Virus record (IMG/VR): IMGVR_UViG_3300022555_000004
DNA: 64,000 nt
Strand: one strand, 5' to 3'
Source of the DNA: a virus
Lineage: Duplodnaviria > Caudoviricetes
In this document: positions 48,556 to 64,000 of the stretch, piece after piece
Numbering within the stretch: position 1 is the first letter of the stretch
Layout: each line of letters begins with the position of its first letter
Made by a program: the position numbers and the translations under genes
Notes under the pieces: generated by a model
What the model saw: the letters and a program-made list of their open reading frames with translations, nothing else
Databases searched by the model: none
Told to the model about the DNA's origin: nothing

Positions 48556-49254
48556 TTATATTGATTTTTCAATTTGTGATAATCTTTTTACCAATCCGTT
48601 TACTGTGCCTTCAGGTATATTTAGTAAAATTGATATTTTATTCCAAGTAAGATTCTTTTTTCTTAATTCAAGTATATCTAAGATAATTTCATCAGAGTAT
48701 TTTTGATGAAATACTCCGATTTTTTGTTTAGTTGATTCAGATAATTTTTTACCTGTTTGCCCTTTGCTATTATTTCTTCTGTGTTCTTCTGTTTGTATTT
48801 TTCCTGTCAGTCCTTTACTTATATTTTCACAATGTTCTTTTGATCGTATTTTTCCTTTAGTGCTTAAACTTATTTGTTTTCGTACTTTAAAAGGGACGAA
48901 TTTTCCTCTGTTACCAATACCTATTTTCTTTTTTGTTTCTTCAGTGGGATGATACCCCGAACTACCTTTTCCTCCAAGAGTTAAATTATATCCATTTGGT
49001 GTAAGTGTGCCTAGCTCTTTTATAAAATAAACTTCTTTTTCGTCAAGATCTTCTCTTGTATTACATTCACATAATATAGACCTCTCAAAATTATCAAATC
49101 CATGTTTTCTCATTGAATTATGAATGTAATGACCAGTACCTTTTATTACATTGGTCTTATGTTCTTTTTTACGAGAATCTAATGTTTTAACTGTTTGACC
49201 AATATATTTTTTGCCGGTGAATATGTTTTTTATTTTATAAATTATACCAAACAT
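48556..49254 (-). CDS. GIY-YIG homing endonuclease (NUMOD3)
   Basis: GIIYKIKNIFTGKKYIGQT, PNGYNLTLGG, HPTEETKKKIG repeats. Confidence 0.9.
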   Translation of the reverse strand: MFGIIYKIKNIFTGKKYIGQTVKTLDSRKKEHKTNVIKGTGHYIHNSMRKHGFDNFERSILCECNTREDLDEKEVYFIKELGTLTPNGYNLTLGGKGSSGYHPTEETKKKIGIGNRGKFVPFKVRKQISLSTKGKIRSKEHCENISKGLTGKIQTEEHRRNNSKGQTGKKLSESTKQKIGVFHQKYSDEIILDILELRKKNLTWNKISILLNIPEGTVNGLVKRLSQIEKSI

Positions 49255-49261
49255 ATTTATT

Positions 49262-50992
49262 TTATAATTGCTTCTCTATTTTTTCTATCATTTTAAAAAT
49301 ATCAAAAAAATATGCTTTTCTGGCTTCTTCAATTGATATAGTTGTTTCGGTAACAATTTCAGGTGTCGCAGTTTTTGGAATATGAATCCACGGAACATCA
49401 AAATCTTTACTTTCGGTTACGGCATTGATCCATGAGGGCTGATTCGATGGGTCAATAACCAAATCCCATGTAATCATGAAATAATCATCATTGACATATC
49501 CATCGCCTTCATTGACTGTTCCAAGACCCCGACTGGAAATACCAATGCGTCCTTCTTTGATTAGTGTTTTAGCGATTTTTCCCATAGGGGTATCAATGAT
49601 TTTAGCTTTTCCAATCAGGTCATTCCCTTGCCATTCAAGTTTTTCAATAAGATGTGAAATGCTTTGTGGTGTAATTTCCGGGCAATTACCTGTAAAGAAC
49701 GATACACTATCATTGTTTCTTACATAAAAATTTTCGTTTTTTACTTGAACACAGTAGACATTACCCTCATAGTATTCTTCCGTAATTTTCATGAACCTAT
49801 TGTCGGGGTATATGCCCTTAGTTGTCATTATTCTCAAAAAATATAAGGGATGTTTATTTTCCGATTTTATAATCCTATCGGCAAATACATAATCTTGTTT
49901 ACATATTTCAACAGTTTTTCTAACAGACAACCCACATTTAAAAGCTATTTCATGGAGATCATCTATCAATTTTTCTGATGTAGAAAATACATCTTTTAAC
50001 TTATCGTTATTTAAAAATCCTCTACCATCGCCTATGCCAAACCAATATAACATTTCTTCTAAACAATCAACAGATAAATTTTTAAATTCGGCGGGTATGT
50101 ATTTATTATAACAATTGCCCAATGGTAACAGAACTTTTGCAAGTCTAACATCTGTAAGTCTAAATGTTATTTTATTCTCATACACTCGTTCTTCCCATAC
50201 CATATCATCGGGAAACCCCTTTAAAAGTGATCGTATTAAATCTGATTTCTCACCGATATTTTGTGCAATACAAACAGTGTTTTTTTCGTTTCTTCCTTTT
50301 GCTAACCAACCTTCTGATAGATATAAGCCCAAGAATCCCACAAAAATTTTCATATCAATAATACTATCTGATGAATATATATTTTTATTTCTATAATACG
50401 ATAATTCATCAATATCAACACCCTTTAGAACATAAACATCGTCTTCACTATTTGAGTGCCACGTTCCGGTTTTGGGGATATATGATTTTTGAATTTTTAG
50501 TGTTTCTGGTGTTCTAACTTCCTCTGATGTAACAAAATAAGGAGTTTCATATCTATTAAATAACAGATGTCGGTGGTTGGGCGTGAATGACATATTAAGT
50601 TGTCTACCAGAGAAGTTAATCATGTTGCCAACAAAGGGAATTTCAATTTTTCGTTTTATTTGGTGATATTCAATATTTCTGGTATCTGTGTTCAATGTTG
50701 CTATAATTTCATTATCTGAAATATTTCTAATTTCCTTCCACCCATCTTTTGTTAACACTTCTGTGTCACCAAATACACAACTTGGATGTGATAATTCGCC
50801 CCATAGGCATTTATTAGCTACCTTTTCCATAAGTTTATCAACTTCACGTTCAAGGGTGGCTTTCTTATAAATTCTATTATTGATATTTTTATTTTCAGCA
50901 GAAGAAAAAACACCTTCTACGAAAATATTTGAATCATCAGATGAATTTACTTTGATGTTTTGTGATACTTCTGTTAAAAGTTTCATTTTCAT
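49262..50992 (-). CDS. gp21: Prohead protease gp21 containing an intein
   Basis: VEGVFSSAENKNINNRIY, WGELSHP, GKAKIIDTPMGKI, GISSRGLG, WDLVIDPS. Confidence 0.93.
   Translation of the reverse strand: MKMKLLTEVSQNIKVNSSDDSNIFVEGVFSSAENKNINNRIYKKATLEREVDKLMEKVANKCLWGELSHPSCVFGDTEVLTKDGWKEIRNISDNEIIATLNTDTRNIEYHQIKRKIEIPFVGNMINFSGRQLNMSFTPNHRHLLFNRYETPYFVTSEEVRTPETLKIQKSYIPKTGTWHSNSEDDVYVLKGVDIDELSYYRNKNIYSSDSIIDMKIFVGFLGLYLSEGWLAKGRNEKNTVCIAQNIGEKSDLIRSLLKGFPDDMVWEERVYENKITFRLTDVRLAKVLLPLGNCYNKYIPAEFKNLSVDCLEEMLYWFGIGDGRGFLNNDKLKDVFSTSEKLIDDLHEIAFKCGLSVRKTVEICKQDYVFADRIIKSENKHPLYFLRIMTTKGIYPDNRFMKITEEYYEGNVYCVQVKNENFYVRNNDSVSFFTGNCPEITPQSISHLIEKLEWQGNDLIGKAKIIDTPMGKIAKTLIKEGRIGISSRGLGTVNEGDGYVNDDYFMITWDLVIDPSNQPSWINAVTESKDFDVPWIHIPKTATPEIVTETTISIEEARKAYFFDIFKMIEKIEKQL
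49685..50779 (-). mobile_element. gp21 intein (365 aa, LAGLIDADG)
   Basis: HPS|CVFGDTEVLT...FTPNH...FFTGN|CPEI; FLGLYLSEG and WFGIGDG motifs. Confidence 0.9.
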
Positions 50993-51831: not shown

Positions 51832-54762
51832 CTAAAATCCAGTATCTTCTTGCCCGCCCGGTGGCATACTCATATCAGGTGCTTGCTCTTCGCCAGTACC
51901 CATTCCCTGCATCTGCATAGTAATCATACCAGGTGCTATTCCACCGGCACCATAACTATCAGCAGCATCCAAAACTTCATCAGGTGGGAAGTATTTCTTA
52001 TCGTTTTTAAATCCTTCTCTATTTTCTAACAATTCATCTTCCGTCCAATGTAAATATTTCTTTACAAGATACGATTTAGAAAATTCAGCATTTTGACATA
52101 GAGCATTATAGTTTTGAAATGCCTGTTCCAAGAACCCTTGATGCATTTGTTCTTTATAATGTGATGGTGGGTTCATTCTAATGGTAAAACTATTTTCTGT
52201 CAAACTATATTGTTTTTTGATTCCTTTGAAATCAAGATGTAACAAGAATAAATCGACCAATTCATTACAGAACTTTCGTTGTTGACGTTCTAGGAATTTT
52301 GCCCATTTTATTTCATCTCTTGAAATTTGGCCTGATCCTGTGCCGCCAAACATTACTTCTTGTCCTTGTTCTACACCTTGGGTTATTCTTGATATAGGGT
52401 ATTTCAATGCTCTATATAATTTATGACTAAAATAGAAAATATCTGTTAGTTCAGTAAATCCAGCAGCATTTCCACCAACACTCGTTATGTCAGATCCACG
52501 ACCTTCAGATGAATTCTTCACGAATATACCTGCTGTCATGGCAAAGTTATGATTATTACCATTATTTTTAATTGTAAGACAACCTGTATCTTCTTTCACA
52601 TCAAGATATTCCACTTTTACTACTTTGTGATTTATAACTATACTCTGTTTGAATTCTGTATATGTTTTACATCCAAACTCTTTATTCAAAATTGTATAGA
52701 AACTTGATTTTCCTAAATGGGTTTTATGGACGTTTTTTATATTTTGATTTATTTGTGACCAATGTTCTATAAATTCTTTGTTGTTTGATAGATTTATCAA
52801 CATTTCATCAAAAGATGGATTATTCTTTACATACTCATAGACAATGTAGTGTGCTGTCTTATAATCAGTTTTAGATGATTGGACATCACTCATATGATTT
52901 GCAAATTCCTCATTTTTCCAACGATTTGCTGATGATTGTGAAGATTTTTCTCTGTATTCACAATCCGTTGCCCATTTATTTTGTATACTTTCTTTTACTT
53001 TATCATTATGGGCTTGTGTCTTTGGCTTACTGACATTTTCATAGAATATTTCATAATTATCAGACCAATTCTTTTTCATCAGTGTAGACATTTTTATTCT
53101 TTCATCGACATCTTCAAATCGTTTATACATCGCTTTACTCGCCGCGATTTTTTGTTTTTCCCTATTTTCCGGTTTATTCAATGCTTCTAACATTGGAATA
53201 TGCGATTTTCTTTCGACATTGGAATTGTGATGAAGGGTTATATGTTCCTTTATTGGCAATGATGTTAAATTATTAGGTTCATTATTAAACCTATTGAAAT
53301 CCATGTGATGTATGGCATTACCTCTTTTTTGCATAGGCCCAAATTCTCTATGTGCATACTTCCATTCATTGTCTTTCATGTCATAAAACATAGTATAGTC
53401 ATTGGTGTTTTTATTCAATTTTTCTGTTTTTGAATAAAATGGCATCAGTGATATACCCTCTGTCAAGTGTATTGCCTCTACTTCATTTCCGTCTCTGGTA
53501 ACAAATTTGTGGTCGGGTGTGCAATCAATATATTCATTATTATCAAGAGTAACTCTAACCATTTCTGCGTTCTTTCGAGTAATGCCGGCCCATTCTATTT
53601 CACCTGACATTATTTTACCAGATTTTTGGTCTATTGAGTAAACATAATTTTTCTTACCATTATCATGTTCATTGATGATGTCAGAAAGTGGTAAAATACG
53701 ACCATCAATAAGGTTGATTTTATTGGATAATCGGAGGCACTGTGGCATAAAATAATTTTCAAGTATATTGAATACTTCTGGTTCGTTTGTCAATGATCCT
53801 GTTTGTGGGTTATATGATTGTTTTTTGATAAACGATTGTTTTATTTTTTCCACAAATTTCATGGCTTTATCACGTGGCATAGCCCCAGTATCAATCTTGA
53901 ATACTAATCTTTCAGGTGAACGGATAAGTCTATAGATAACAACGGATGTTTCCAATAATTTCAATTGATTGTATGGAACTTTGGCTTTTTCTAAATATCC
54001 AAGAATATTAAGTTTTGTTGCCCCATAAATGCCGTAGTTTATGAATCCAATTTGGGCAGGTTCAAACATGATAAGTTTGCCTTGTTGAACGTCTTTCAGG
54101 GCCATTTCTCTACTAGGCGGGCGTCTAAAATTAGGAACGAGATATTGATAATAACCCATAATTCGTCCAGTTTTTGGCTCATATTCATAGTCCATTGTTT
54201 CAGTAGGAAGCTTTTTGACAGCAAGAATTCCTTTGTTCTTGTTGTTGAGATCTATTACTCTTTCATAAAATATTTTTCCATCAATAAGATATGTTCTCAA
54301 CCAATCCCACAAGGTATCATTGACATCAATTCGTTCATAGAATAATGATTTGAATTCCCTGTATAATATTTTACTAATATTGTCGTTTTCAGAAATTTTG
54401 TCATCGGTAAGATCTAATGATAATAGATTTTCGTGTTCATCTATATCACACATTTCATTACAGGCGTCTTCAATAACATCCGATATTTCAGGATATTCTG
54501 ACATTTTTCTATATTCAATTACTCGTTGATATTCATTTTCAAAAGCTCTGTTGATATAAGAATTATAGAATGAATTGAAACTACCCATTCCAGTGGCGCC
54601 ATATCCGCCCATTTGTAACATGGCAACGTCTTCAACACCTTCACCTGTACGATTTTTAAAATCTGAAGCGGTCATGTTGGCTTCGTCATCTTTACCTTTG
54701 AAGGCTTTTAGACTTTCATCGACTCTATTTTTTCCTGTGAACACATCATACCATGCCATCAA
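51832..54762 (-). CDS. gp20: Portal protein gp20 containing an intein
   Basis: YRKMSEYPEI, YLIDGKIF, GYLEKAKVPYNQLKLLETSVVIYRLIRSPERLVFKIDTG, YRALKYPISR, DEIKWAKF. Confidence 0.95.
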   Translation of the reverse strand: MMAWYDVFTGKNRVDESLKAFKGKDDEANMTASDFKNRTGEGVEDVAMLQMGGYGATGMGSFNSFYNSYINRAFENEYQRVIEYRKMSEYPEISDVIEDACNEMCDIDEHENLLSLDLTDDKISENDNISKILYREFKSLFYERIDVNDTLWDWLRTYLIDGKIFYERVIDLNNKNKGILAVKKLPTETMDYEYEPKTGRIMGYYQYLVPNFRRPPSREMALKDVQQGKLIMFEPAQIGFINYGIYGATKLNILGYLEKAKVPYNQLKLLETSVVIYRLIRSPERLVFKIDTGAMPRDKAMKFVEKIKQSFIKKQSYNPQTGSLTNEPEVFNILENYFMPQCLRLSNKINLIDGRILPLSDIINEHDNGKKNYVYSIDQKSGKIMSGEIEWAGITRKNAEMVRVTLDNNEYIDCTPDHKFVTRDGNEVEAIHLTEGISLMPFYSKTEKLNKNTNDYTMFYDMKDNEWKYAHREFGPMQKRGNAIHHMDFNRFNNEPNNLTSLPIKEHITLHHNSNVERKSHIPMLEALNKPENREKQKIAASKAMYKRFEDVDERIKMSTLMKKNWSDNYEIFYENVSKPKTQAHNDKVKESIQNKWATDCEYREKSSQSSANRWKNEEFANHMSDVQSSKTDYKTAHYIVYEYVKNNPSFDEMLINLSNNKEFIEHWSQINQNIKNVHKTHLGKSSFYTILNKEFGCKTYTEFKQSIVINHKVVKVEYLDVKEDTGCLTIKNNGNNHNFAMTAGIFVKNSSEGRGSDITSVGGNAAGFTELTDIFYFSHKLYRALKYPISRITQGVEQGQEVMFGGTGSGQISRDEIKWAKFLERQQRKFCNELVDLFLLHLDFKGIKKQYSLTENSFTIRMNPPSHYKEQMHQGFLEQAFQNYNALCQNAEFSKSYLVKKYLHWTEDELLENREGFKNDKKYFPPDEVLDAADSYGAGGIAPGMITMQMQGMGTGEEQAPDMSMPPGGQEDTGF
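52513..53739 (-). mobile_element. Portal intein (409 aa) carrying an HNH-type endonuclease
   Basis: MPQ|CLRLSNKI...CTPDH...IHHMDFNRFNNEPNNL...GIFVKN|SSEGRG. Confidence 0.9.
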
Positions 54763-54771
54763 TCATTACCT

Positions 54772-56208
54772 CTATTTTGTATTGGACGTTCCTTCAAGTA
54801 ATTCTATTATTCTATTCATTGATTTTTTCAATTCCGATGTTTCGCCTTTCAACCCATTGATTTCATTCATAATATTGGGTGATGTGATAACCTCTACATT
54901 TGATTTTTCCGGCAATATTGAACGTGCCTGATCATTGAGTCCACCTGAATATGATGTATTATAACAATGACATCCAAAATCCAATGATGGATCCAATTTC
55001 TTAATTTCATGTGGTGTTCCTTCTAGGTAACACATATTATTACAAGTACACGATCCTTTCATATTTCCGCCCATGTTTGAGATATTAGGAAATTTAAAAT
55101 TATTTACTTTCAACAATTTATGATAGTATCTAATAGCATTTCCAAGTCTATCCATCCATTTACAATAAACATCTGGTGGTGTGTTTATAGCTCCGGTCAA
55201 ATCAAAGTTTACAGCATAACAAGACATATCACATAAATTACCATACCACTGGCAATTACGACATTTATCTTGAACTGGATATTGCATAAAATCTATAAAT
55301 TGTCGCCTGAACTCTGGTCTTAAAATACCATCGTCTATTGTGCCCAAATAAGCTTTATCTTGCCATTTTCTACCATCATATTTGTTGAATCTATGACAAG
55401 GATAAATAACGCCATCAACTGAAATTGCTGAGTAAAATCTACCAGCACCGCATGGGAAAGACGGTATTTTTTTATTTCGTTCAATGTTCAAAGCGCCATC
55501 ATCAAGATGTTTTACATCTAATGGTAGTCCTTTTTTTCTTGTTTCGATCATAAAGTCGGCCAATAACATCATTTGTTCTTCGGCCACATCAAAATCTTTT
55601 TCAGTCCAATCCATTTCAAAAACTGGGGAAAACATTTGTGATCTAACACCTTGATTATAGAAATATTTGATACTCTCCATCAATTTTCCCATTGTATCGG
55701 GTGTTGGCGCCATCCTTGTTCTAATAAATGGTATTTTTTCAATAATATGTGGTAAATTCTTCATAATATCATCGAAACTGCTACCATTCTTTATGGCGGT
55801 TGGTCTGTATAAATCTTGAACTTCTTTTATGCCATCAATAGACATCATAAAATATGATCTATGGTCGTTCATCCATTTGACAACTTCTGTCGTCATCAAT
55901 GTTCCATTGGATGTACCGCCAATGGATAATTTTTTCTTTTCTTTGTTGGCTTTTTCTAAAGCATAATCTGATAATCGTTTCATCAAGTCAAATTTTAAGA
56001 ACGGTTCACCGCCCCACCAATCCAATGATAAAACATCGGATTGACTTATTTCGTCTTTGAATATCCAATCTATCGTTTTGATGCCTTGTTTAAGGGTCAA
56101 ATCTCTTTTGCCTATACCATAAGTAAAACAATACTTACATCTAAGGTTACATTTTTCTGTAATGTCAACCGTACATTTGTTGATGGGAAAATCTAATTTT
56201 TTTAACAT
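54772..56208 (-). CDS. Radical SAM/SPASM maturase-like enzyme with a C-terminal CxCxxxCY-containing tail
   Basis: CNLRCKYC, WWGGEPFL, TSNGTL, SIDG; SPASM CGAGRFYSAISVDGVIYPCHRF...CRNC..YGNLCDMSCY. Confidence 0.92.
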   Translation of the reverse strand: MLKKLDFPINKCTVDITEKCNLRCKYCFTYGIGKRDLTLKQGIKTIDWIFKDEISQSDVLSLDWWGGEPFLKFDLMKRLSDYALEKANKEKKKLSIGGTSNGTLMTTEVVKWMNDHRSYFMMSIDGIKEVQDLYRPTAIKNGSSFDDIMKNLPHIIEKIPFIRTRMAPTPDTMGKLMESIKYFYNQGVRSQMFSPVFEMDWTEKDFDVAEEQMMLLADFMIETRKKGLPLDVKHLDDGALNIERNKKIPSFPCGAGRFYSAISVDGVIYPCHRFNKYDGRKWQDKAYLGTIDDGILRPEFRRQFIDFMQYPVQDKCRNCQWYGNLCDMSCYAVNFDLTGAINTPPDVYCKWMDRLGNAIRYYHKLLKVNNFKFPNISNMGGNMKGSCTCNNMCYLEGTPHEIKKLDPSLDFGCHCYNTSYSGGLNDQARSILPEKSNVEVITSPNIMNEINGLKGETSELKKSMNRIIELLEGTSNTK

Positions 56209-56229
56209 TTTTACCTCACATTTTTATTT

Positions 56230-57900
56230 TTATGATGGTTCTGAATAACAAACGTCATCACATACACATTGATTATATAAGTAACAAGTAGCATCACATG
56301 AGCATCCGGTATCAGAATAACAAGACGTATTACATGTGCATAGTGTATCTCCATGGCATGTTGCATTACAACTACATGTTGACTGGTGATAACATGTTGC
56401 ATTACATGAACATATTGGTTCAAGATAACAGTGGTGGTCACATATACAAATATTATCACCATAACATGTTTGATAACATGAACATGGTGTAATTCCATGT
56501 CCGGTGCCATAACATGTGCAGGACGATTCTCCATCACATGTGCCATCACATGTGCATGATGGTAGACCATATTCAACTGTATCACAAGCGCATACTGATT
56601 GAATATAACACAAATTGTCACATGTACAGTTTAGTGATACGAGATATGTTGTAAAATTACACGATACACATGCTGAATACCCATAACAAGGGCCATCACA
56701 TGTGCATGTTACTTCTTGATAACACATTTTATCACACGTACAGGTATATACTCCATCATAATACATTCCTTTACTACACATAAAATCCGATTGGCACCCG
56801 CTCCAGCTACCATAACTGATAGGGTTATCACACGTACATCCTGTATATCCGTATTGTGTAGTATTACATTCTGAACATGGTGTATTGCCATAACATGTAT
56901 CATCACATGTGCATGTTTGGGTTATTCCATATTGTGTATCGTCACACGTACATGGACTAGAATAATATTTTGTTCCATCACAGGTACAAGCGACATAATT
57001 ATAACAAGGGCCATCACATGTGCAAGAAGCATACCCATAACAAGGGCCATCACAGGTACATGTAGATATATAACCATAACAAGGGCCATTACATGAACAA
57101 TGTGAGTATTCTGTTTCATCACACGAACACGATCCGCCGTAAAATACCATGTTACATGTGCATGCTACGTATGTATAACATGTTGCGTTACATGTGCATG
57201 GTGTGTCACCATAACATGTATTGTTACATGAACACGATACATCACCATAACATGTATTGTTACATGAACATGGGGAGTCTCCATAACACGCATTATCACA
57301 TGTACAAACGGCTTCGTTTGTATCGCGAAGGGCTTTTATAATCCATTTTACATATGTATGTTTAGGTTGGGGTTGTGTTACGGCGGTTCCCCATTGATGT
57401 GTTGCTGACGTACCAACGGAATGTGTGGAATCACGCCCTTTTAGGTATTGACTTCTATAATCAGGAAGATTAAAATGACCATTTATATTTACTGCACCAT
57501 ACATGTATTCTAAAACATGGAACAGATCAGTATATACATTTATATCAACAGATGCGCCATTACATTCAAGAAATCCGGTTGGTGGTGTTTCTGTTGCCCA
57601 CGCTAAAACGGTTCCAACCGGAAGAACAGAACCCCCTGTTGGTGTTTTCCATTCACCCTGCCCGTTTAGAAATCGTGATCTACTATCCGGTAATTGTGGA
57701 GCGAGACCATTTTTTGTTGTTGTTACTACTGAATTATCAGCAACTTCTACCCATGAGTCAACATCTCCGTAGTATAATTTTTGGGTATCAATTGTATATA
57801 TTACTCTGCCTTCATCGTTGGCAGATGACGTAAATGCCGGTTTAGTTGTCACCCTTTGTATTTTTACTGGGCCTCTAGCATCAATTTCATGGAATTCCAT
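56230..57900 (-). CDS. Tail-collar-domain fibre protein with about 29 Cys-rich repeats
   Basis: Collar motif LPVGTVLAW...PTGFLECNGA...YTDLF...FNLPDYR, then C-x-C-[DN]-x-x-C-Y repeats to the C-terminus; TATAAATA at 57935. Confidence 0.85.
   Translation of the reverse strand: MEFHEIDARGPVKIQRVTTKPAFTSSANDEGRVIYTIDTQKLYYGDVDSWVEVADNSVVTTTKNGLAPQLPDSRSRFLNGQGEWKTPTGGSVLPVGTVLAWATETPPTGFLECNGASVDINVYTDLFHVLEYMYGAVNINGHFNLPDYRSQYLKGRDSTHSVGTSATHQWGTAVTQPQPKHTYVKWIIKALRDTNEAVCTCDNACYGDSPCSCNNTCYGDVSCSCNNTCYGDTPCTCNATCYTYVACTCNMVFYGGSCSCDETEYSHCSCNGPCYGYISTCTCDGPCYGYASCTCDGPCYNYVACTCDGTKYYSSPCTCDDTQYGITQTCTCDDTCYGNTPCSECNTTQYGYTGCTCDNPISYGSWSGCQSDFMCSKGMYYDGVYTCTCDKMCYQEVTCTCDGPCYGYSACVSCNFTTYLVSLNCTCDNLCYIQSVCACDTVEYGLPSCTCDGTCDGESSCTCYGTGHGITPCSCYQTCYGDNICICDHHCYLEPICSCNATCYHQSTCSCNATCHGDTLCTCNTSCYSDTGCSCDATCYLYNQCVCDDVCYSEPS
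56233..57306 (-). repeat. Degenerate ~36-nt (12-aa) tandem repeat, C-x-C-[DN]-x-x-C-Y-G-x-x-x
   Basis: About 29 units counted by hand, roughly 77 Cys in ~358 aa. Confidence 0.9.
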
Positions 57901-57987
57901 ATGTATTACACCTCTGTTAGATTCTTATATTCATTATTTATAAGAATTAACATATTTAACTAATATTTTTTCTGAATACAGAAAAAT

Positions 57988-59199
57988 TTAAATATTTATT
58001 ATTCCGGGCTGTTTATAGCCTTCTTTTAAAGAGGTTAAATGGGCAATAGACCAACACACTTGTTGTTCGTTTTTGTCCGAAGTGTATTCTCTCATGCTTT
58101 GAAATCTAACTGGCGTATCAATATATTGTGCCCAATTACTATTTGTATAGTATAAAAACGAATTAGAATTCCAAAATGAAACATGTGTAGGATCTTGAAA
58201 TGCTCCACGACCATCGGTTGATGGTACTTGAATAAAGGCATAACCGCCGGGTGCTAAAACTCTATATAATTCTTTCATTGTGTGCAAAGGGTCGAATAGA
58301 TGTTCAAATACATCAAATGCTCTTATTACACCAATGGAACTATCTTCAAACGGCCATCTTCCGTTTAAGTCACAAATAATATCAGCATCTTTTATATCAA
58401 CTGATTTATATCCGTCTTGTTTATTCAATCTACCACCTAAGTCAAGCGCTTCTAGTGTGTTATCATTTGACCATTTCAAAGCCAATTTTTCAATATATTT
58501 GTCATATAATGGATAAACACCGTTTTGAATTTCTTGATTTCGTTCTAACCATGTATTATCACCATGAACACGATACACGTATAGACCTTTATCAATATGA
58601 TGAAATTTGGTAATTTGATACATTCTACACATCAAATCTTGGTCATCAAGAACTTTTAATGATGCATCATAACCGCCTGCTTGATTATATATTCTTTTTC
58701 TAAATGCTCTAAAATGATCCGGTGCATACCATATTTTTGATACACTTGCTGGTGTTGGTGGGAATGATATAGGTTCATCTAAAATGAACCCTTTATATAT
58801 TGTTTCACGATATTGCCATCCATGATCAGAATTAAATCGTTCCAATTTACCCAATTCCATATTTGTATATAATGAATTAGAGTAAACAAAACCAACTTCT
58901 TCATCAACGAAGGCTTTTCGTATTTCATCAATTGCGTTCGGTGTCAATAGATCATCATGGTCTAATTCAACTAAAATATCACCGGAGCAGTTTTCACATG
59001 CGATTTTTTTATATTGACCGACACCAACAACATCAATTGACATTGTGATATTTTTAACACGGGCGTCATTGAAATCTATTGGTTCGGCACCATTATTATA
59101 AACAATAACCCATTCGTCAAAATCTTGGTCTTTGATACTATCATAGACTTCTTTCAGGTACTTCGTATTGTGTGTTGGTGTAAAAATGCTTAACTTCAT
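57988..59199 (-). CDS. GT2 glycosyltransferase fused to a class I SAM methyltransferase
   Basis: LSIFTPTHN, ELDHDDLL, DDQDLMCR, LYVYRVH; then LDLGG, FDVFEHL, YRVLAPGG. Confidence 0.88.
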   Translation of the reverse strand: MKLSIFTPTHNTKYLKEVYDSIKDQDFDEWVIVYNNGAEPIDFNDARVKNITMSIDVVGVGQYKKIACENCSGDILVELDHDDLLTPNAIDEIRKAFVDEEVGFVYSNSLYTNMELGKLERFNSDHGWQYRETIYKGFILDEPISFPPTPASVSKIWYAPDHFRAFRKRIYNQAGGYDASLKVLDDQDLMCRMYQITKFHHIDKGLYVYRVHGDNTWLERNQEIQNGVYPLYDKYIEKLALKWSNDNTLEALDLGGRLNKQDGYKSVDIKDADIICDLNGRWPFEDSSIGVIRAFDVFEHLFDPLHTMKELYRVLAPGGYAFIQVPSTDGRGAFQDPTHVSFWNSNSFLYYTNSNWAQYIDTPVRFQSMREYTSDKNEQQVCWSIAHLTSLKEGYKQPGIINI

Positions 59200-59233
59200 A
59201 ATTTAACCTCTTTATTCAACATTTTATTTTTGC

Positions 59234-60238
59234 TTAATTTTCAGATATACGTGTTCGTAATTTTATCAGATATCCATCCTCCAATGTAGTGGCTTCAAGT
59301 AAATCTGGTGATATTTTTTCTAACCAAGTATCATAAACTTTTTTATCAACCAATACCTTCAATGTTTTATATCCAGCATCTATACACCAATTTTTAAATA
59401 ATTTACGGCTGATCATTAGTTCATCATAAGTCAACAATTTTAAAACGGGTTTTCTTGAAAATGGTGATGAGTAGTCTAGTTCTGTAACTGTATCTCCCTG
59501 TCTTATAATGAAACAATCAACAGGAATATTATTTTTATAAACATTCAAAACAAGAGCGTTATCCAAGTATAACCATTGATTCATAAAATTTATGGCCATT
59601 GTAGCTCGATTCCAATTTGACTTATTCAAATTATCAAATATCCAATCAGTATCCGTTGTTTGTTGTAGACTTATGTCACCTTCTGAATATATTGTATCTC
59701 TTGATGGGATTGTAATATTTTGTTCTGAAATAAACCAGGCTGGTCTTTCCACACTAAAACATTTTATTTCTGTTGATGTTTTAACTTCTAATATACCCTC
59801 ATAATATTTTAATATCAATCCGTTTTGATCCATTATATCAAAAACTTGTTGTTTTGTATATTTATGGGTTGACATAATACGATATAAATCATTTGATGTT
59901 GGTACATCCCAACATAAATTTGGTTTTATTTCAACGTGTTCATTTATAACAATTGTGTCTGGATGTTCATCAAATATTATTTCATGATTATGTGACATAA
60001 ATTCATCGGGGATTCCTTTGGTTTTGAGGTAATTCCAAAGTGTTCTAGTGTCTTGTATTTGATAAATAATACCATCTTTAACTTTTAGACGATTTATGTT
60101 TTTTATGACATTAGATGAAACATAATCATCGTCTATTTCAATAAATGTATGGTTTGGATAAAAATCTTTATTGAACAAATCTGCATTAATCAACAATTTT
60201 GGAACATTATTTTCATCCGATATAAGAATTTTTTTCAT
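59234..60238 (-). CDS. Hypothetical protein, paralog of 61461..62552
   Basis: Shared KPNL.WDVPT..DL, TKQQVFD.M.QN, WLYLD.ALVLN.YKN. Confidence 0.7.
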   Translation of the reverse strand: MKKILISDENNVPKLLINADLFNKDFYPNHTFIEIDDDYVSSNVIKNINRLKVKDGIIYQIQDTRTLWNYLKTKGIPDEFMSHNHEIIFDEHPDTIVINEHVEIKPNLCWDVPTSNDLYRIMSTHKYTKQQVFDIMDQNGLILKYYEGILEVKTSTEIKCFSVERPAWFISEQNITIPSRDTIYSEGDISLQQTTDTDWIFDNLNKSNWNRATMAINFMNQWLYLDNALVLNVYKNNIPVDCFIIRQGDTVTELDYSSPFSRKPVLKLLTYDELMISRKLFKNWCIDAGYKTLKVLVDKKVYDTWLEKISPDLLEATTLEDGYLIKLRTRISEN

Positions 60239-60302
60239 TTGATTTTTGCTCCTTCAAATCTAGTTTTGTTTATTATATTTTTTATATCCATAAACAATTC
60301 TC

Positions 60303-61442
60303 CTATTTTGTTTCTTCATATTTTATTCGTTTACTATATTTTTTACGAAGTTCCATTAATCTTGGAATAACAGATTTATATACTTCACAAAATGGTGATT
60401 TTGTATCAAATCGACCAAACGTAGCTAACTTGTCATTTGGACATCCTGATTGACATATATCTTTAATATCGCAAATTTTACATTCTTGTGGAGCATCAGG
60501 TCGTTTATATGCCCATCTAAAATTATCATTTCGCATTAGCTGGTTTGGATGTTCAGAATAGATGGTTCCTGCGGTTACTTCATGATTTCTTAAGCAAGGG
60601 CCAACAGATCCATCTGGTCTAACGGACAAAACTCCTCGGCCACAGAAATATCGTGAATAAATATCAGGGTATTTGTCCCAATTTTGCGGTAATATATAAT
60701 CTTGTACATAATCATAACTAACGTGATACCCTCTGGACGAATATTTCTCCATTACATCTAGTATAGAATGGTATTTTTTAATCAGTCTTTCTTTGTATTC
60801 TTGATTATTTCCTTCAAACATATTTCTATAGAATCTACATCTAAAGTTATTCTCACACGCTATTGTAACAATTTCCTCTACTCTAGTTCCAAGTATATTT
60901 TCATCTGTAAGTACGCATGTGTTAGTTAAATATAATGCTTCGGAATTCTCTTTGATAATCATTGCTCTTCGTAAATACTCTTGTGGGGATAGATCAGTTA
61001 TATTAAAATGCCAAGAATAAAGGTATCTCAAATCATCCCAATTAACTACATCTAATAAATCACCGTTTGTGAAAATACCACCAGTAATAGGTAAAGAATC
61101 TTTAGCTATTCTATCCATCACACGTTTAATTCTATCCGTTCTTAACAAAGGCTCGCCACCCAAAAATATTAGTAGAAATTGTTTTTTATCTGATTCTTCA
61201 TATACTTTAGGCACCCATTCGACAAAATCTTCAAACATTTCATCAGACATTTCGCCAGAATGTTTTCCTTGCGCTTTTATGTAACAAGAAGGACACGTTC
61301 TAGTACAATAATAAGATAAGTATACCGCTATCCATGACATTGGCATAGATTCCCAACTAGGAATTTTACTTACTTTACGATCTTTATATTTATCAACTGT
61401 TGTAGTTAAAGAATAAATAGTTCTTGGTAATGTTTGTTTCAT
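60303..61442 (-). CDS. Second radical SAM/SPASM enzyme
   Basis: CTRTCPSC, FLGGEPLL, FTNG; SPASM CGRGVLSVRPDGSVGPC...CKICDIKDICQSGCP...C. Confidence 0.9.
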   Translation of the reverse strand: MKQTLPRTIYSLTTTVDKYKDRKVSKIPSWESMPMSWIAVYLSYYCTRTCPSCYIKAQGKHSGEMSDEMFEDFVEWVPKVYEESDKKQFLLIFLGGEPLLRTDRIKRVMDRIAKDSLPITGGIFTNGDLLDVVNWDDLRYLYSWHFNITDLSPQEYLRRAMIIKENSEALYLTNTCVLTDENILGTRVEEIVTIACENNFRCRFYRNMFEGNNQEYKERLIKKYHSILDVMEKYSSRGYHVSYDYVQDYILPQNWDKYPDIYSRYFCGRGVLSVRPDGSVGPCLRNHEVTAGTIYSEHPNQLMRNDNFRWAYKRPDAPQECKICDIKDICQSGCPNDKLATFGRFDTKSPFCEVYKSVIPRLMELRKKYSKRIKYEETK

Positions 61443-61460
61443 TATTAATGTTCCTTTTTT

Positions 61461-62552
61461 CTAATTATTATTTTCAAATATATCTAAATTACGTTGTATA
61501 GGATTTGGTATTACAACGATCCTACTTCCAACATTAGTTCCAATATATGTAATACTATCTTTCCATAATTGTACTTTAGCAAGATCTAATTGTATTTTAG
61601 TAGGATCTACAGGATTAACTAATACTTTAGTATCAATACAAGATATCAATGAATTAAAAATTCTTTCATCAATATACATTGTAGCATTTACATATCCCGC
61701 CGAGGACATCCACTTATAAAATAAATGCCTCATGGTTTTAGCTTCATCAAAAGACATCTTTGTTAGTAAATAATTTATGGAAAAAGGTTTTGTATAATCA
61801 AGCTGTGTGTCTTTACCATGTCTTATAATACAACAATCAACTAATACACCATTTTTATACCCATTAAGAACAAGAGCATCATCTAAATATAACCATGATT
61901 CTATCTCACGTATAGCTAAATCTTTTCTACTCCAATTAGACGCATTTAGATTATCAATTACCCAATTTGCATTAGATCCTTGTTGAACATATAAATCTCC
62001 AACCGTATATGTTGTATTTCTTGACGGAATAATAATTCTAGTATCTGTAAAAAACCAATCCGCTCTTTCTTTACTAAGAGGAATTGTTTCTATTGATGTT
62101 TTTATTGCCAAAATAGCATCGTTCCATTTCATCACTAACATATTTTGATTCATCATATCAAACACTTGTTGTTTGGTAAATCCATTTTGTATAATAATAT
62201 TTAAATCTTCTCCTGTTGGCACATCCCAATATAAATTAGGTTTTATATCAACACGTTCATCAATATTCGATGTATTTGGTGGTTCATTCAATATAGTGTC
62301 TTCTTTTTGTGATAGATATGTTGATTCTTGCCCCTTGTCTTTCAGATGTGACCAGAGGTCACGTTTATTTTTTATTTGATATATGTGGCCATTTATTATT
62401 TTTATATTTTCTGTATTTTGGGCAACAATATGTGATATGGTATTATCTACTTCAACATATGTGTTGCCCGGATAATGTGATATATTAAAATTGCTGGTTT
62501 TTATCACACCATTCGCATGTCCGTCTGAATCAATCAATAAATAATTTTTCAT
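61461..62552 (-). CDS. Hypothetical protein, paralog of 59234..60238
   Basis: Same shared motifs as its paralog; follows the collagen fibre gene. Confidence 0.7.
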   Translation of the reverse strand: MKNYLLIDSDGHANGVIKTSNFNISHYPGNTYVEVDNTISHIVAQNTENIKIINGHIYQIKNKRDLWSHLKDKGQESTYLSQKEDTILNEPPNTSNIDERVDIKPNLYWDVPTGEDLNIIIQNGFTKQQVFDMMNQNMLVMKWNDAILAIKTSIETIPLSKERADWFFTDTRIIIPSRNTTYTVGDLYVQQGSNANWVIDNLNASNWSRKDLAIREIESWLYLDDALVLNGYKNGVLVDCCIIRHGKDTQLDYTKPFSINYLLTKMSFDEAKTMRHLFYKWMSSAGYVNATMYIDERIFNSLISCIDTKVLVNPVDPTKIQLDLAKVQLWKDSITYIGTNVGSRIVVIPNPIQRNLDIFENNN

Positions 62553-62569: not shown

Positions 62570-64000
62570 TTATACTAATCTATATCCGTTTACTATCAAT
62601 GTTCTATATACAATAGATCCTGCTGTAGTAGCAGAAGTGTTTGCAGATGTTGCCGTTACAACATATGTCATATTTCCATTATATGATGGATAATCCGTTG
62701 TCATCAATACTAGATTAGAACTATAAACACCAGCATATCCGCCTGTTGTATCTAGTAGTTGTCCACTGACATTTGTTCTTCTTAATCTGAGTGTTGTGCC
62801 GTATGTGAGTGATGTTCCTGGCGTATATCCCCCCGTTTTTGGATCAATATATGCCGGTGTTCCAGAATTTGCTGGATCCGATCCTAATACCACCCTAGCC
62901 ATCAGTATTGCTGTAGTTGTTGCTGTCATAGACAATGTTACTGAAGCAATAACCGTTTCGTAATTGAAGTTTATTGACGATGAATTTGTATATGATCCAG
63001 CCGTTGAAATAGAGCCCGGGCCTGGCTGTCCCTGAACACCAGCAGAACCGTTAGGCCCTTGTGCGCCTGCCGTACCTGTTGCTCCTTGTGCACCAGCGGC
63101 TCCTTGATTGCCTGTTGGGCCTGTTGGGCCTGTTGCTCCTGTGTTGCCTGTTGCTCCTGTGTTGCCTGTTGGGCCCTGCGATCCCATATAACCTTGTGGG
63201 CCAATTACTCCTTGTGCTCCTGTCACGCCTTGTGACCCCATCAAACCTTGCGATCCAGTTGCTCCTTGTGCTCCCTTAAGACCTTGTGCTCCAACATTTC
63301 CTTGTTGACCAATAACGCCTTGACTACCTGTAAGTCCTTGTGGGCCAATTACGCCCTGCGAACCAATAAGTCCTTGTGGGCCTACTTGACCCTGTTGACC
63401 AATAACACCTTGACTTCCTGTATTACCTTGTGGGCCGATTACACCTTGACTACCAACATTTCCTTGTGGCCCCTGCGGGCCAGATGCCCCAGTTGCACCT
63501 TGTGACCCTGTTGGGCCAGTATTTCCTTGTGCCCCTATGTTTCCTTGTGGCCCTGATAATCCTTGTGATCCAGTATCGCCTTGACTACCTGTAAGACCTT
63601 GTGGGCCGGTGTTTCCTTGTGAACCAATATTTCCTTGTGGGCCTTGTGCTCCAGTTGAACCGGCATTACCTTGTGATCCTGTTTGGCCCTGATTTCCTGT
63701 TGCTCCTTGTGATCCTGTGTTGCCTGTTGCACCAACAGCGCCTTGTGCTCCTGTTGCTCCTTGTGACCCTGTTGGGCCAGTGTTTCCTTGTGAACCAATA
63801 TTTCCTTGTGGGCCTTGTGCTCCAGTTGAACCGGCATTACCTTGTGATCCTGTTTGGCCCTGATTTCCTGTTGCTCCTTGTGATCCTGTGTTGCCTGTTG
63901 CACCAACAGCGCCTTGTGCTCCTGTTGCTCCTTGTGACCCTGTTGGGCCAGTGTTTCCTTGTGAACCAATATTTCCTTGTGGGCCTTGTGCTCCAGTTGA
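62570..64000 (-). CDS. Collagen-like (Gly-X-Y) tail fibre/spike protein, 5'-truncated by the window edge
   Basis: The frame I read upstream of the track's 63244 start stays open and in Gly-X-Y register ([13 protein letters not shown]...), with the repeat continuing to base 64000. It ends in a ~150-aa non-collagen C-terminal domain. Confidence 0.88.
63609..64000. repeat. 171-bp tandem repeat (at least 2.3 copies) in the collagen gene
   Basis: GTGTTTCCTTGTGAACCAATA recurs at 63609, 63780 and 63951. Confidence 0.9.

What the first reader, a model, noticed from the sequence alone, without database searches (positions are those of the whole stretch)
54772..62552. Candidate new system: radical SAM/SPASM maturation of a Cys-repeat virion fibre (RiPP-like chemistry on a structural protein)
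Seen: a tail-collar protein ends in ~29 tandem C-x-C-[DN]-x-x-C-Y units (~77 Cys). It is immediately followed by a SPASM-domain rSAM. A second SPASM rSAM, a GT2-methyltransferase and two paralogous unknowns lie between it and a collagen fibre gene, all co-oriented and directly upstream of the portal gene. Established: SPASM rSAMs install thioether or C-C crosslinks on Cys-rich peptides (sactipeptides, ranthipeptides), and cytoplasmic phage assembly does not favour disulfides. Inference: the phage may cross-link or metallate a receptor-binding fibre with its own maturases and also glycosylate or methylate it. I know of no described case of RiPP-type rSAM modification of a phage structural protein.
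Basis: partly seen in the sequence, partly recalled or inferred. Interest (0 to 1): 0.92.

Follow-up and report, generated by a model that had tools for sequence, protein, structure and literature searches.

The report
Phage fibre cysteine repeats with radical-SAM maturase
A freshwater T4-like phage encodes a virion fibre ending in about 29 cysteine-rich 12-residue repeats next to a thioether-type radical-SAM enzyme, and the same pair recurs in unrelated phages, so these phages very probably modify this fibre enzymatically, which I found in no paper.

Summary
A 556-aa tail-collar protein (56230-57900, minus strand) carries 78 Cys, 76 of them in about 29 units of C-[TS]-C-[ND]-x-[TAS]-C-Y-G-x(3). 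Twenty-one bases downstream starts a radical SAM/SPASM enzyme (rSAM1). Its best family matches are PapB, the SCIFF maturase, a nif11-like maturase and QhpD; where the chemistry is known it is Cys-thioether formation.

The link is supported by comparison. Nine of nine informative contigs found through the repeat alone carry an rSAM1 orthologue, in T4-like, SU10-like and TAG-recoded phages. The clade has no leader-binding (RRE) domain. Instead it has a nearly invariant C-terminal tail that copies the repeat (CxCNNMCY...CxCYNTxY).

A second rSAM/SPASM enzyme joins in about half of the larger loci. The GT2-methyltransferase and the two paralogous unknowns are not conserved parts.

AlphaFold gives a moderate-confidence narrow beta-solenoid, one 12-residue unit per coil.

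Best reading (0.6): rSAM1, with or without rSAM2, staples this core-less solenoid with thioether bonds. The chemistry is untested.

No paper found describes this. The scan has noted related phage systems on other DNA. I rate it a new variant of a known kind.

The parts
56230..57900 (-). Virion fibre protein, 556 aa: conserved N-terminus, tail Collar domain (aa 96-151), then the Cys-repeat region
   Evidence: Pfam Collar E 1.4e-15. PHROG tail collar fibre families. Orthologue P0003 shares the N-terminus.
56233..57306 (-). Cys-repeat region (aa 199-556): about 29 units of C-[TS]-C-[ND]-x-[TAS]-C-Y-G-x(1-3); proposed substrate and predicted narrow beta-solenoid
   Evidence: Unit list and counts. 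Position profile over 228 units from 23 proteins. AlphaFold2 of aa 425-556 gives pLDDT 72 with two strands per 12-residue unit. Solenoid matches by VIA-align.
57935..57942 (-). T4-type late promoter motif TATAAATA, 35 nt upstream of the fibre ATG, followed by the Shine-Dalgarno sequence GAGGT
   Evidence: 23 of the 26 window matches lie on the coding strand; no shuffle reached 26 matches.
54772..56208 (-). rSAM1: radical SAM/SPASM enzyme, 478 aa (CX3CX2C at C20/C24/C27; seven SPASM Cys), no RRE domain; proposed thioether-forming maturase of the fibre
   Evidence: Pfam and NCBIfam. Alignment to CteB 5WGG residues 100-436. AlphaFold2 core pLDDT above 85. Gap of 21 nt to the fibre gene with its own Shine-Dalgarno sequence.
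54934..55062 (-). rSAM1 C-terminal repeat-mimic tail (aa 383-425): CTCNNMCYLEG ... CHCYNTSYSG
   Evidence: C387, C389, N391, C393, Y394, C413, C415 and Y420 are conserved in at least 90% of 34 clade members. Both units are present in most of P0023-P0057 and absent from all more distant homologues. pLDDT below 50 in the model.
54787..54879 (-). rSAM1 C-terminal amphipathic helix (aa 444-474)
   Evidence: AlphaFold2 helix 444-474. The same tail plus helix occurs as a free-standing 104-aa ORF in L002 2540-2854.
60303..61442 (-). rSAM2: second radical SAM/SPASM enzyme, 379 aa; a frequent but not universal partner
   Evidence: SPASM passes its cut-offs (Pfam 23.6 bits against 21.5; TIGR04085 41.1 against 27). 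Orthologues in 11 of 22 clade loci of at least 10 kb.
57988..59199 (-). GT2 glycosyltransferase fused to a class I methyltransferase, 403 aa; a neighbour, not shown to belong to the system
   Evidence: Pfam. No homologue in any related locus. 44%-identical homologue in S-CRM01, away from structural genes.
61461..62552 (-). Unknown A, 363 aa; lineage-specific orphan
   Evidence: No Pfam, NCBIfam or PHROG match. Only 6 hits among 1.84 billion representatives. Weak GNAT-like lead only.
59234..60238 (-). Unknown B, 334 aa; paralogue of unknown A (43% identity)
62570..64000 (-). Collagen-like fibre gene (runs beyond the window end); collagen-like fibres recur in related loci
   Evidence: Pfam Collagen. 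Homologues next to rSAM1 in L006, L012, L087 and L088.
51832..54762 (-). T4-type portal (gp20) with an intein; context marking the structural-gene region
   Evidence: Pfam Portal_T4 E 6e-86 and Intein_splicing E 1.2e-9.

Best explanation
The C-terminal 360 residues of the fibre are a stack of 12-residue coils forming a very narrow beta-solenoid. Its interior would be lined by cysteines, not by a hydrophobic core. This arrangement is inferred.

The fibre and rSAM1 are made together late in infection, from one late promoter. rSAM1 is a leader-independent radical SAM/SPASM enzyme related to the thioether-forming maturases PapB, CteB and QhpD. It recognises the repeat unit itself and works along the unfolded or folding chain. 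It most likely joins Cys sulfur to a carbon of a nearby residue; Asn/Asp at unit position 4 is the obvious candidate. This gives up to one or two thioether staples per coil.

The staples would do what disulfides do in extracellular mini-solenoids, but they can be made in the reducing cytoplasm and cannot be reduced later.

The enzyme's conserved tail copies the repeat. It most likely acts as a built-in pseudo-substrate or docking element in place of the missing leader/RRE system. rSAM2, where present, adds a second type of modification.

Shown: the anatomy, the co-occurrence, the family relationships and the tail conservation. Inferred: substrate identity, thioether chemistry, the role of the tail and the structural purpose.
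For: 1. Gene layout. Fibre and rSAM1 are 21 nt apart and co-oriented, behind a TATAAATA late-promoter motif.

2. Forward co-occurrence. Ten homologues of the repeat were looked up by the repeat alone. Nine contigs had enough flank, and all nine carry an rSAM1 orthologue (30-38% identity over the full length, E 1e-56 to 1e-102) within about 7 kb. Only 38 of 50,697 phage records match rSAM1 at all.

3. Reverse co-occurrence. Of 17 non-redundant viral loci found with the rSAM1 profile, 13 hold a Cys-repeat ORF within 10 kb. All are on the enzyme's strand. One more has it 22 kb away.

4. Different phage backbones. These are T4-type portal (window), SU10-type capsid and adaptor, and a TAG=Q recoded contig.

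5. Family scores. The top NCBIfam scores are PapB 222 bits, SCIFF maturase 149, nif11 147, QhpD 134, CXXX-repeat 130 and CcpM 129. C-C-forming families score 50-67 bits. The closest solved structure is CteB (E 2e-34).

6. The tail. The motif CxC[NY]NMCY...CxC[NY]xxxY is near-invariant in the clade and absent outside it.

7. Inteins. They interrupt rSAM1 orthologues in two relatives. Inteins usually sit in conserved, needed proteins (my own knowledge).

8. Repeat conservation. N/D4 is conserved at 84%, Y8 at 84% and C7 at 75%; C1 and C3 define the unit. DNA-level identity between units is only about 75%.

9. Literature precedent. PapB links Cys to Asp/Glu at i+1 to i+7 (PMC12373016). NxxcB links Asn-x-x-Cys and tolerates Asp (PMC9389541). 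Both spacings exist in the unit.
Against: - No chemistry was measured.
- rSAM1 scores below the curated cut-off of every named family, so its reaction cannot be transferred by membership.
- PapB needs a carboxylate acceptor, but more than half of all units surveyed (36% in the window) have Asn.
- In the model, Asn/Asp4 sits in the turn after the first strand. Asparagine ladders are common in solenoids for purely structural reasons, so its conservation does not prove that it is the acceptor.
- A few clade loci show no Cys-repeat ORF in the DNA held: L010, L016 (a contig rated complete) and L008 (cut near the gene).
- The complex prediction gave no verdict.
- AlphaFold leaves the tail unplaced.
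- The phage comes from lake water, so the oxygen-sensitive enzyme must work in a possibly aerobic host.
Confidence: 0.6

Rival explanations
1. The rSAM enzymes do act on the Cys-repeat fibre, but the chemistry is not thioether stapling. Alternatives are Cys oxidation to formylglycine, C-C or C-O cross-links involving the conserved Tyr, epimerisation or methylation.
For: - rSAM1 and rSAM2 are below every family cut-off.
- Tyr8 is as conserved as Asn/Asp4.
- rSAM2 has weak matches to cyclophane-forming and anSME families.
- Some related loci add a B12-type rSAM.
Against: rSAM1's six best family matches are families with Cys-bearing targets, thioether-forming where the chemistry is known. They stand well above C-C formers and anSME. 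No sulfatase-type CxPxR motif is present in the units.
Confidence: 0.17
2. The repeats are only a metal-thiolate or disulfide scaffold, comparable to the His-x-His iron sites of the T4 fibre tip. The rSAM enzymes then modify something else, for example their own tail or a small peptide such as the 104-aa tail-only ORF of L002.
For: - CxC pairs are classic metal ligands.
- The enzyme tail with five conserved Cys could itself be a metal site, and its low pLDDT would fit a metal-dependent fold.
- A free-standing tail ORF exists.
- A few clade loci lack a Cys-repeat ORF.
Against: This reading does not explain why 9 of 9 repeat-bearing contigs carry the same enzyme clade, nor why the repeat and the enzyme move together between unrelated phage types. 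Disulfides are not expected to form in the cytoplasm (general knowledge).
Confidence: 0.12
3. The Cys-repeat protein is a giant RiPP-type precursor. Modified peptides would be cut out and released as a bioactive product, and would not remain in the virion.
For: The enzyme family is otherwise devoted to RiPP maturation. Repeated cores in one precursor are known for some RiPP classes (my own knowledge).
Against: - The protein has a tail Collar domain and a conserved fibre N-terminus.
- In other phages the repeat lies between fibre N- and C-terminal domains.
- No protease or exporter gene recurs across the loci.
- The gene sits among structural genes behind a late-promoter motif.
Confidence: 0.04

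Closest known systems
PapB/PapA (freyrasin) ranthipeptide system
   Same: It is the best-scoring family for rSAM1 (222.6 bits, full-length colinear match). It is a radical SAM/SPASM enzyme that installs several Cys-to-Asp/Glu thioethers in a repetitive Cys-containing core. The Cys-to-acceptor spacings of i+1 to i+7 that PapB tolerates (PMC12373016) exist in the phage unit.
   Different: The score is below the 340-bit cut-off. rSAM1 has no RRE domain and the substrate has no leader. The substrate is a 556-aa virion protein with about 29 units, not a short peptide. More than half of all units surveyed (36% in the window) have Asn where PapB needs a carboxylate. rSAM1 also has a repeat-mimicking tail.
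CteB/CteA (SCIFF, thermocellin) and its solved structure 5WGG
   Same: It is the closest solved structure (E 2e-34). The core and SPASM domain are colinear and the seven SPASM Cys are conserved. My own recollection, not checked here, is that one auxiliary cluster of CteB takes the substrate Cys as a ligand.
   Different: The alignment starts at CteB residue 100, so the N-terminal peptide-binding domain is absent. The TIGR03974 score is 149 against a cut-off of 425.
QhpD/QhpC (quinohemoprotein amine dehydrogenase maturation)
   Same: It is a precedent for a SPASM enzyme that puts Cys-to-Asp/Glu thioethers into a protein which stays a structural subunit and is not released as a peptide (my own knowledge). 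TIGR03906 matches at E 7e-39.
   Different: The score is 134 against a cut-off of 453. QhpC is a small single-copy subunit with three cross-links, not a long repeat array, and it is not viral.
NxxcB/NxxcA (streptococcal RaS-RiPP)
   Same: It forms a beta-thioether from Asn to a Cys three residues downstream, and Asp is tolerated (PMC9389541). The phage unit contains exactly [ND]-x-x-C.
   Different: No NxxcB-named family appeared among the 25 NCBIfam matches listed for rSAM1, so the likeness is in the motif only. NxxcA is a short peptide with a leader.
CXXX-repeat rSAM system (TIGR04115 maturase) and other phage Cys-repeat/rSAM loci noted earlier in this scan
   Same: A rSAM/SPASM enzyme is paired with long cysteine-repeat targets. 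Related phage loci with other repeat types (CTCNCNY heptads, CNCN) appeared in my own searches.
   Different: The repeat unit differs (12 residues, CxC[ND]xxCY). The enzyme clade differs (130 bits against a cut-off of 350). The clade-specific repeat-mimic tail is absent from the CXXX-family homologues.
Insect antifreeze beta-helices with 12- or 15-residue coils (Tenebrio and spruce budworm types)
   Same: My own recollection: these are very narrow solenoids of 12- or 15-residue coils, held by one disulfide per coil in place of a hydrophobic core, with Cys six residues apart as C1 and C7 are here. The budworm protein 1M8N appears at Z 5.2 in the fold search.
   Different: There is no sequence relationship. 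The fold match is generic. The phage unit has three Cys, and the protein is made in the cytoplasm, where disulfides are not expected.

Membership tests
Radical SAM superfamily (PF04055) | CX3CX2C cluster motif and a match above the Pfam cut-off | tested here: met
   rSAM1 has C20-x3-C24-x2-C27 and scores 48.1 bits against 29.5. rSAM2 has C46-x3-C50-x2-C53 but scores 28.2 bits, just under 29.5. It is supported by Fer4_12 and NCBIfam matches.
SPASM domain (PF13186 / TIGR04085) | Seven-Cys motif CX9-15GX4C ... CX2CX5CX3C ... C for two auxiliary clusters | tested here: met
   rSAM2 passes both cut-offs (23.6 against 21.5; 41.1 against 27). rSAM1's Pfam score is 18.2, below 21.5. However, seven Cys (C253, C271, C316, C319, C326, C330, C349) are invariant or nearly so in the clade, and they align with CteB's SPASM region.
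PapB family ranthipeptide maturase (NF047865) | Score at or above the curated equivalog cut-off (340 bits) | tested here: not met
   222.6 bits.
PapB/CteB-type RiPP maturases | N-terminal RiPP recognition element that binds a leader peptide | tested here: not met
   rSAM1 has only 12 residues before the core. Alignments begin at CteB residue 100 and at TIGR03974 profile position 99.
SCIFF maturase (TIGR03974), QhpD (TIGR03906), CXXX-repeat maturase (TIGR04115), CcpM (TIGR04068) | Score at or above each curated cut-off | tested here: not met
   149 against 425; 133.7 against 453; 130.2 against 350; 128.8 against 500.
RiPP pathway in the strict sense | Short precursor with leader and core; leader removed by a protease; product released | tested here: not met
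   The candidate substrate is a 556-aa Collar-domain fibre. No protease or exporter gene recurs in the related loci. Actual processing cannot be tested with these tools.
Ranthipeptide/sactipeptide chemistry | Cys sulfur to carbon thioether in the product | not testable with these tools
   Needs mass spectrometry or NMR of the modified protein.
Phage tail collar fibre (PF07484) | Collar domain match above the cut-off | tested here: met
   57.4 bits against 24, residues 96-151. PHROG tail collar fibre families also match.
Proposed clade: phage rSAM1 with repeat-mimic tail | Post-SPASM tail CxC[NY]N[ML]CY followed about 18-20 residues later by CxC[NY]xxxY | tested here: met
   The window enzyme has CTCNNMCY at 387 and CHCYNTSY at 413. 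28 of the 35 proteins P0023-P0057 carry both units and the other 7 one unit. None of 62 more distant homologues carries either. The tail residues are conserved in at least 90% of 34 aligned members.

The most novel reading that the evidence does not exclude
Some phages build a core-less 12-residue beta-solenoid fibre whose coils are held by enzymatically installed thioether staples. These would stand in for disulfides, but they can be made in the cytoplasm and cannot be reduced.

The maturase has dispensed with the leader/RRE logic of RiPP enzymes. It carries a built-in copy of its substrate's repeat instead. That copy serves as a pseudo-substrate that caps the open auxiliary cluster, or as a docking and template element.

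This would be the first enzymatic radical cross-linking of a virion protein, and a natural example of leader-free, processive RiPP-type chemistry on a large protein.
Probability: 0.35. Interest if true: 0.92.

Novelty: new variant of a known kind. Interest (0 to 1): 0.85.

Why it matters
Virion proteins are known to be cross-linked autocatalytically (HK97 capsid isopeptides) or stabilised by metals (T4 fibre tips). I found no report of a dedicated radical enzyme doing this.

If confirmed, the finding would do four things:
- It extends RiPP-type radical SAM chemistry from short leader-bearing peptides to large structural proteins.
- It gives a natural leader-independent thioether-forming enzyme that works on a simple 8-12-residue motif. 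That would be attractive for stapling engineered proteins.
- It offers a new design principle for ultra-thin, reduction-proof protein rods.
- It marks a conserved, probably needed, step in fibre assembly for many uncultured phages.

The claim is directly testable with two or three genes in E. coli.

Tried and rejected
- **Complex prediction.** rSAM1 core (residues 1-380) with fibre residues 196-258 gave a score of 0.00 and no verdict. It is not evidence either way.
- **Single-protein scan of viral contigs.** The scan with rSAM1 alone found nothing. The profile A1 was needed.
- **tblastn against phage records.** The fibre matched only through its Collar domain in 50,697 phage records. The low-complexity filter may hide the repeat.
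- **Structure searches for the repeat.** Foldseek against the PDB found nothing at E <= 0.001. A profile of the repeat against PDB sequences gave no hit even at E 10. VIA-align matches are generic solenoids with high rmsd, so no specific fold family is claimed.
- **Intended negative control.** I meant to use more distant phage rSAM loci as controls. The control failed because 35 of 97 carry other kinds of Cys-repeat ORFs. That shows a broader phenomenon and is not a baseline. Of 24 cellular loci with rSAM homologues outside the clade (L172, L174, L175, L177-L180, L183-L199), none shows a Cys-repeat ORF. Two further GC-rich loci (L181, L182) gave doubtful hits.
- **Unknowns A and B.** There is no Pfam, NCBIfam or PHROG match. 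They have only 6 hits in 1.84 billion representatives. The GNAT-like lead from the Atlas is weak (scores 0.85, TM 0.3-0.4 on a low-confidence model) and was not pursued.
- **Companion gene families of other loci.** They were tested by HMM against the window: no hits.
- **Promoter and terminator scan.** Sigma-70 promoter-like and terminator-like sites are not enriched.
- **Considered and rejected.** The reading that the GT2-MTase modifies the fibre has no comparative support. Sulfatase-type formylglycine maturation is unlikely because the motif is absent.

Full report
**1. What is in the sequence**

The region lies in a structural-gene block of a T4-like phage. It is directly upstream of a gp20-type portal (Pfam Portal_T4, E 6e-86) that carries an intein. 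The portal is followed by a prohead protease, also with an intein. The window has about 32% G+C and its genes run on the minus strand. The same DNA is found in lake-water and freshwater metagenomes from three studies. The longest contig on record that holds rSAM1 is 229 kb.

In transcription order the genes are as follows.

| Gene | Coordinates (minus strand) | Size |
|---|---|---|
| Collagen-like fibre | 62570 to beyond 64000 | partial |
| Unknown A | 61461-62552 | 363 aa |
| rSAM2/SPASM | 60303-61442 | 379 aa |
| Unknown B | 59234-60238 | 334 aa, 43% identical to A |
| GT2 + class I methyltransferase fusion | 57988-59199 | 403 aa |
| Collar + Cys-repeat fibre | 56230-57900 | 556 aa |
| rSAM1/SPASM | 54772-56208 | 478 aa |

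The fibre has a Collar domain at residues 96-151. From residue 199 to its end it has 76 of its 78 Cys, in units mostly 12 residues long. A profile of 228 units from 23 proteins gives C-[TS]-C-[ND]-x-[TAS]-C-Y-G-[YEQD]-x(1-3). The two Cys of C-x-C define the unit. N/D4 is present in 84% of units, C7 in 75%, Y8 in 84% and G9 in 55%. Where C7 is lost, Y8 is usually kept.

DNA-level repeats are short and only 75-77% alike. The motif is therefore maintained by selection on the protein.

A T4 late-promoter motif, TATAAATA, lies 35 nt before the fibre ATG. The fibre stop and the rSAM1 start are 21 nt apart, with a GAGGT ribosome-binding site between them.

**2. The enzymes**

rSAM1 has the CX3CX2C motif and seven conserved SPASM cysteines. 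Its NCBIfam matches are colinear and full-length, but all fall below the curated cut-offs.

| Family | Bits |
|---|---|
| PapB | 222.6 |
| SCIFF maturase | 149 |
| nif11-like maturase | 147 |
| QhpD | 134 |
| CXXX-repeat maturase | 130 |
| CcpM | 129 |
| C-C-forming maturases (YhhB, DynA) | 60-67 |
| anSME (TIGR03942) | 70 |

The closest solved structure is CteB (5WGG, E 2e-34). The alignment runs from CteB residue 100 to 436, opposite rSAM1 residues 13-350. rSAM1 therefore lacks the N-terminal peptide-binding (RRE) domain on which PapB depends for leader recognition (PMC12373016).

AlphaFold2 with 34 clade sequences models the core confidently: mean pLDDT is 82 overall and above 85 for most of residues 1-370. 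It leaves residues 377-443 unplaced (pLDDT below 50) and ends with a helix at 444-474.

rSAM2 has a clear SPASM domain but only weak family matches.

**3. The enzyme's tail copies the repeat**

After the SPASM domain, rSAM1 reads CTCNNMCYLEG and, 18 residues on, CHCYNTSYSG. This is not an accident of this phage.

- Of the 35 closest homologues (P0023-P0057, E below 1e-60), 28 have both units and the other 7 have one. P0058, P0059, P0061 and P0063 keep one unit.
- None of the 62 more distant homologues has either unit. These include CXXX-repeat and SCIFF maturases.
- In the alignment, C387, C389, N391, C393, Y394, C413, C415 and Y420 are conserved in at least 90% of members.
- In one related contig the tail plus terminal helix also exists as a free-standing 104-aa ORF, directly after the fibre gene (L002 2540-2854; 58% identical to the window's tail).

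**4. Does the pair recur?**

*Forward test.* A search with the repeat region alone found 22 metagenomic proteins with the same unit. The unit is set in different fibre architectures. Often it lies between a conserved fibre N-terminus and a C-terminal domain.

I looked up the contigs of ten of them. Nine had usable flanks, and all nine carry an rSAM1 orthologue, usually 3-7 kb from the fibre gene or adjacent to it. Identity is 30-38% over the full length, with E from 1e-56 to 1e-102. For the P0014 contig no DNA was returned by that look-up, but locus L011 from the same viral contig shows the orthologue. The tenth contig ends 2.2 kb upstream of the fibre gene.

The backbones differ. They include SU10-type capsid and adaptor genes, a TAG=Q recoded contig and the T4-type window. 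For scale, only 38 of 50,697 phage records match rSAM1 at all.

*Reverse test.* A profile of the clade (A1) recovered viral and metagenomic loci.

- Of 17 non-redundant viral clade loci, 13 hold a Cys-repeat ORF within 10 kb. Every such ORF is on the enzyme's strand.
- One more, L006, the closest large relative, has a Cys-repeat ORF 22 kb away on the same contig.
- Exceptions are L008 (cut 848 bp upstream of the gene), L010 and L016. L016 lies on a contig rated complete.

*Baseline in cellular genomes.* None of 24 cellular loci with rSAM homologues outside the clade shows a Cys-repeat ORF. Two further GC-rich loci gave doubtful hits.

*Other genes.* rSAM2 orthologues accompany rSAM1 in 11 of 22 loci of at least 10 kb. 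Collagen-like fibres recur in the T4-like relatives.

The GT2-MTase and unknowns A and B have no counterpart in any locus. The GT2-MTase has a 44%-identical homologue in cyanophage S-CRM01. There it lies among non-structural genes, in a record with no match to rSAM1. Unknown A has only six hits among 1.84 billion representatives.

Two rSAM1 orthologues are interrupted by inteins, which usually lodge in conserved, needed proteins (my own knowledge).

**5. Fold of the repeat**

I ran AlphaFold2 on residues 425-556 with 22 aligned repeat segments. It gave pLDDT 72 and pTM 0.54, with two short strands per unit. C-x-C forms one strand and x-C-Y-G the other. [ND]-x forms one turn and the variable residues the other.

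Foldseek finds nothing significant. VIA-align finds solenoids and beta-rolls: trimeric-autotransporter heads at Z 10-11 with rmsd about 7 A, Ag43 at Z 9, ice-binding proteins and tailspikes.

I take from this only that a narrow solenoid of one unit per coil is plausible. Such a coil has no room for a hydrophobic core. As I recall, insect antifreeze helices of 12-15 residues per coil rely on a disulfide in each coil.

**6. Most likely mechanism**

The fibre and rSAM1 are made together late in infection. rSAM1 lacks a leader-binding domain, so it recognises the unit itself. It installs Cys-to-carbon thioethers along the chain, which gives a covalently stapled solenoid. rSAM2 adds a second modification in the phages that have it.

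The unit offers two spacings known from characterised enzymes:
- Cys followed by Asp at i+1 or i+3. PapB accepts i+1 to i+7.
- [ND]-x-x-C. NxxcB uses this spacing and tolerates Asp.

The tail is best explained as a pseudo-substrate or docking element. By analogy with CteB (as I recall its structure), it might occupy the free coordination site of an auxiliary cluster until substrate arrives. That is speculation.

Cautions:
- Asn/Asp in a solenoid turn can be conserved for structural reasons alone.
- Every family cut-off is missed.
- No product has been seen.
- The complex prediction was uninformative.

**7. Comparison and novelty**

The system works like the ranthipeptide and QhpD systems, but it is not a member of any named family (see the membership table). 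It also fails the defining features of a RiPP pathway: there is no leader and no RRE, no release machinery was found, and the substrate is a 556-aa virion protein.

Eight full-text searches found no paper linking radical SAM enzymes to phage fibre cysteine repeats. One cyanophage paper lists a radical SAM maturase as an 'antibiotic synthesis' gene, with no link to a fibre (PMC12801897).

This scan has noted related phage Cys-repeat/rSAM systems on other DNA. My own searches also turned up other repeat classes beside other phage rSAMs. New here are the 12-residue CxC[ND]xxCY class, its dedicated enzyme clade with the repeat-mimic tail, and its presence in a T4-like freshwater phage.

I rate it a new variant of a known kind, of high interest, with the chemistry still to be shown.

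Noticed in passing
window 51832-54762 and 49262-50992 (minus strand): Both the portal (gp20) and the prohead protease carry inteins (Intein_splicing E 1.2e-9 and 2.9e-5). A GIY-YIG homing endonuclease gene follows at 48556-49254.
   Followed up: partly
L088 7077-9614; protein P0026: rSAM1 orthologues in two related phages are interrupted by inteins. One is an HNH intein after about residue 256, at the conserved PCGAG motif. The other is a LAGLIDADG-type insert.
   Followed up: partly
L030 7904-8509, L032 13379-14254, L036 4964-5482, L147 7062-9128, L150 14129-15736: Other phage rSAM/SPASM loci carry fibre-like proteins ending in a different cysteine repeat, a heptad C-T-C-N-C-N-Y with up to about 20 copies. 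They point to further classes of the same kind of system.
   Followed up: no
L053-L081 (for example L064 9374-9775): Small proteins of about 135-175 aa, rich in CNCN motifs, lie directly upstream of a more distant rSAM in many viral contigs.
   Followed up: no
L150 14129-15736: The heptad Cys repeat is followed in the same ORF by a sequence that looks like the N-terminal splicing motif of a Hint/intein domain (CFLAGTPVL...). This suggests autoprocessing at the end of the repeat.
   Followed up: no
L088 12645-14057: A third radical SAM protein in this related locus is fused to a transglutaminase-like domain (DUF553, E 7.5e-8).
   Followed up: no
L003 12347-18152: In this locus the rSAM1 orthologue is joined by a B12-binding rSAM, an aspartate-decarboxylase-like gene and an MFS-like membrane protein. 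This hints at more elaborate modification.
   Followed up: no
L004 1441-3603: A 720-aa repeat protein with 113 Cys is readable only with TAG=Gln. The system therefore also occurs in a stop-codon-recoded phage.
   Followed up: no
window 63582-64000: The collagen-like fibre gene contains a 171-bp DNA tandem repeat that is 96% identical (2.4 copies up to the window end). Unlike the Cys repeat, this is a recent expansion.
   Followed up: no
window 56211-56621 (minus strand): A 136-aa His/Val-rich ORF overlaps the Cys-repeat gene in another frame. It is a shadow of the repeat and not a gene; a similar shadow ORF exists in L002.
   Followed up: partly
window 57988-59199; L171 7001-8254: The GT2-methyltransferase fusion has a full-length, 44%-identical homologue in freshwater cyanophage S-CRM01 (g90), located near psbA and hli genes.
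   Followed up: partly
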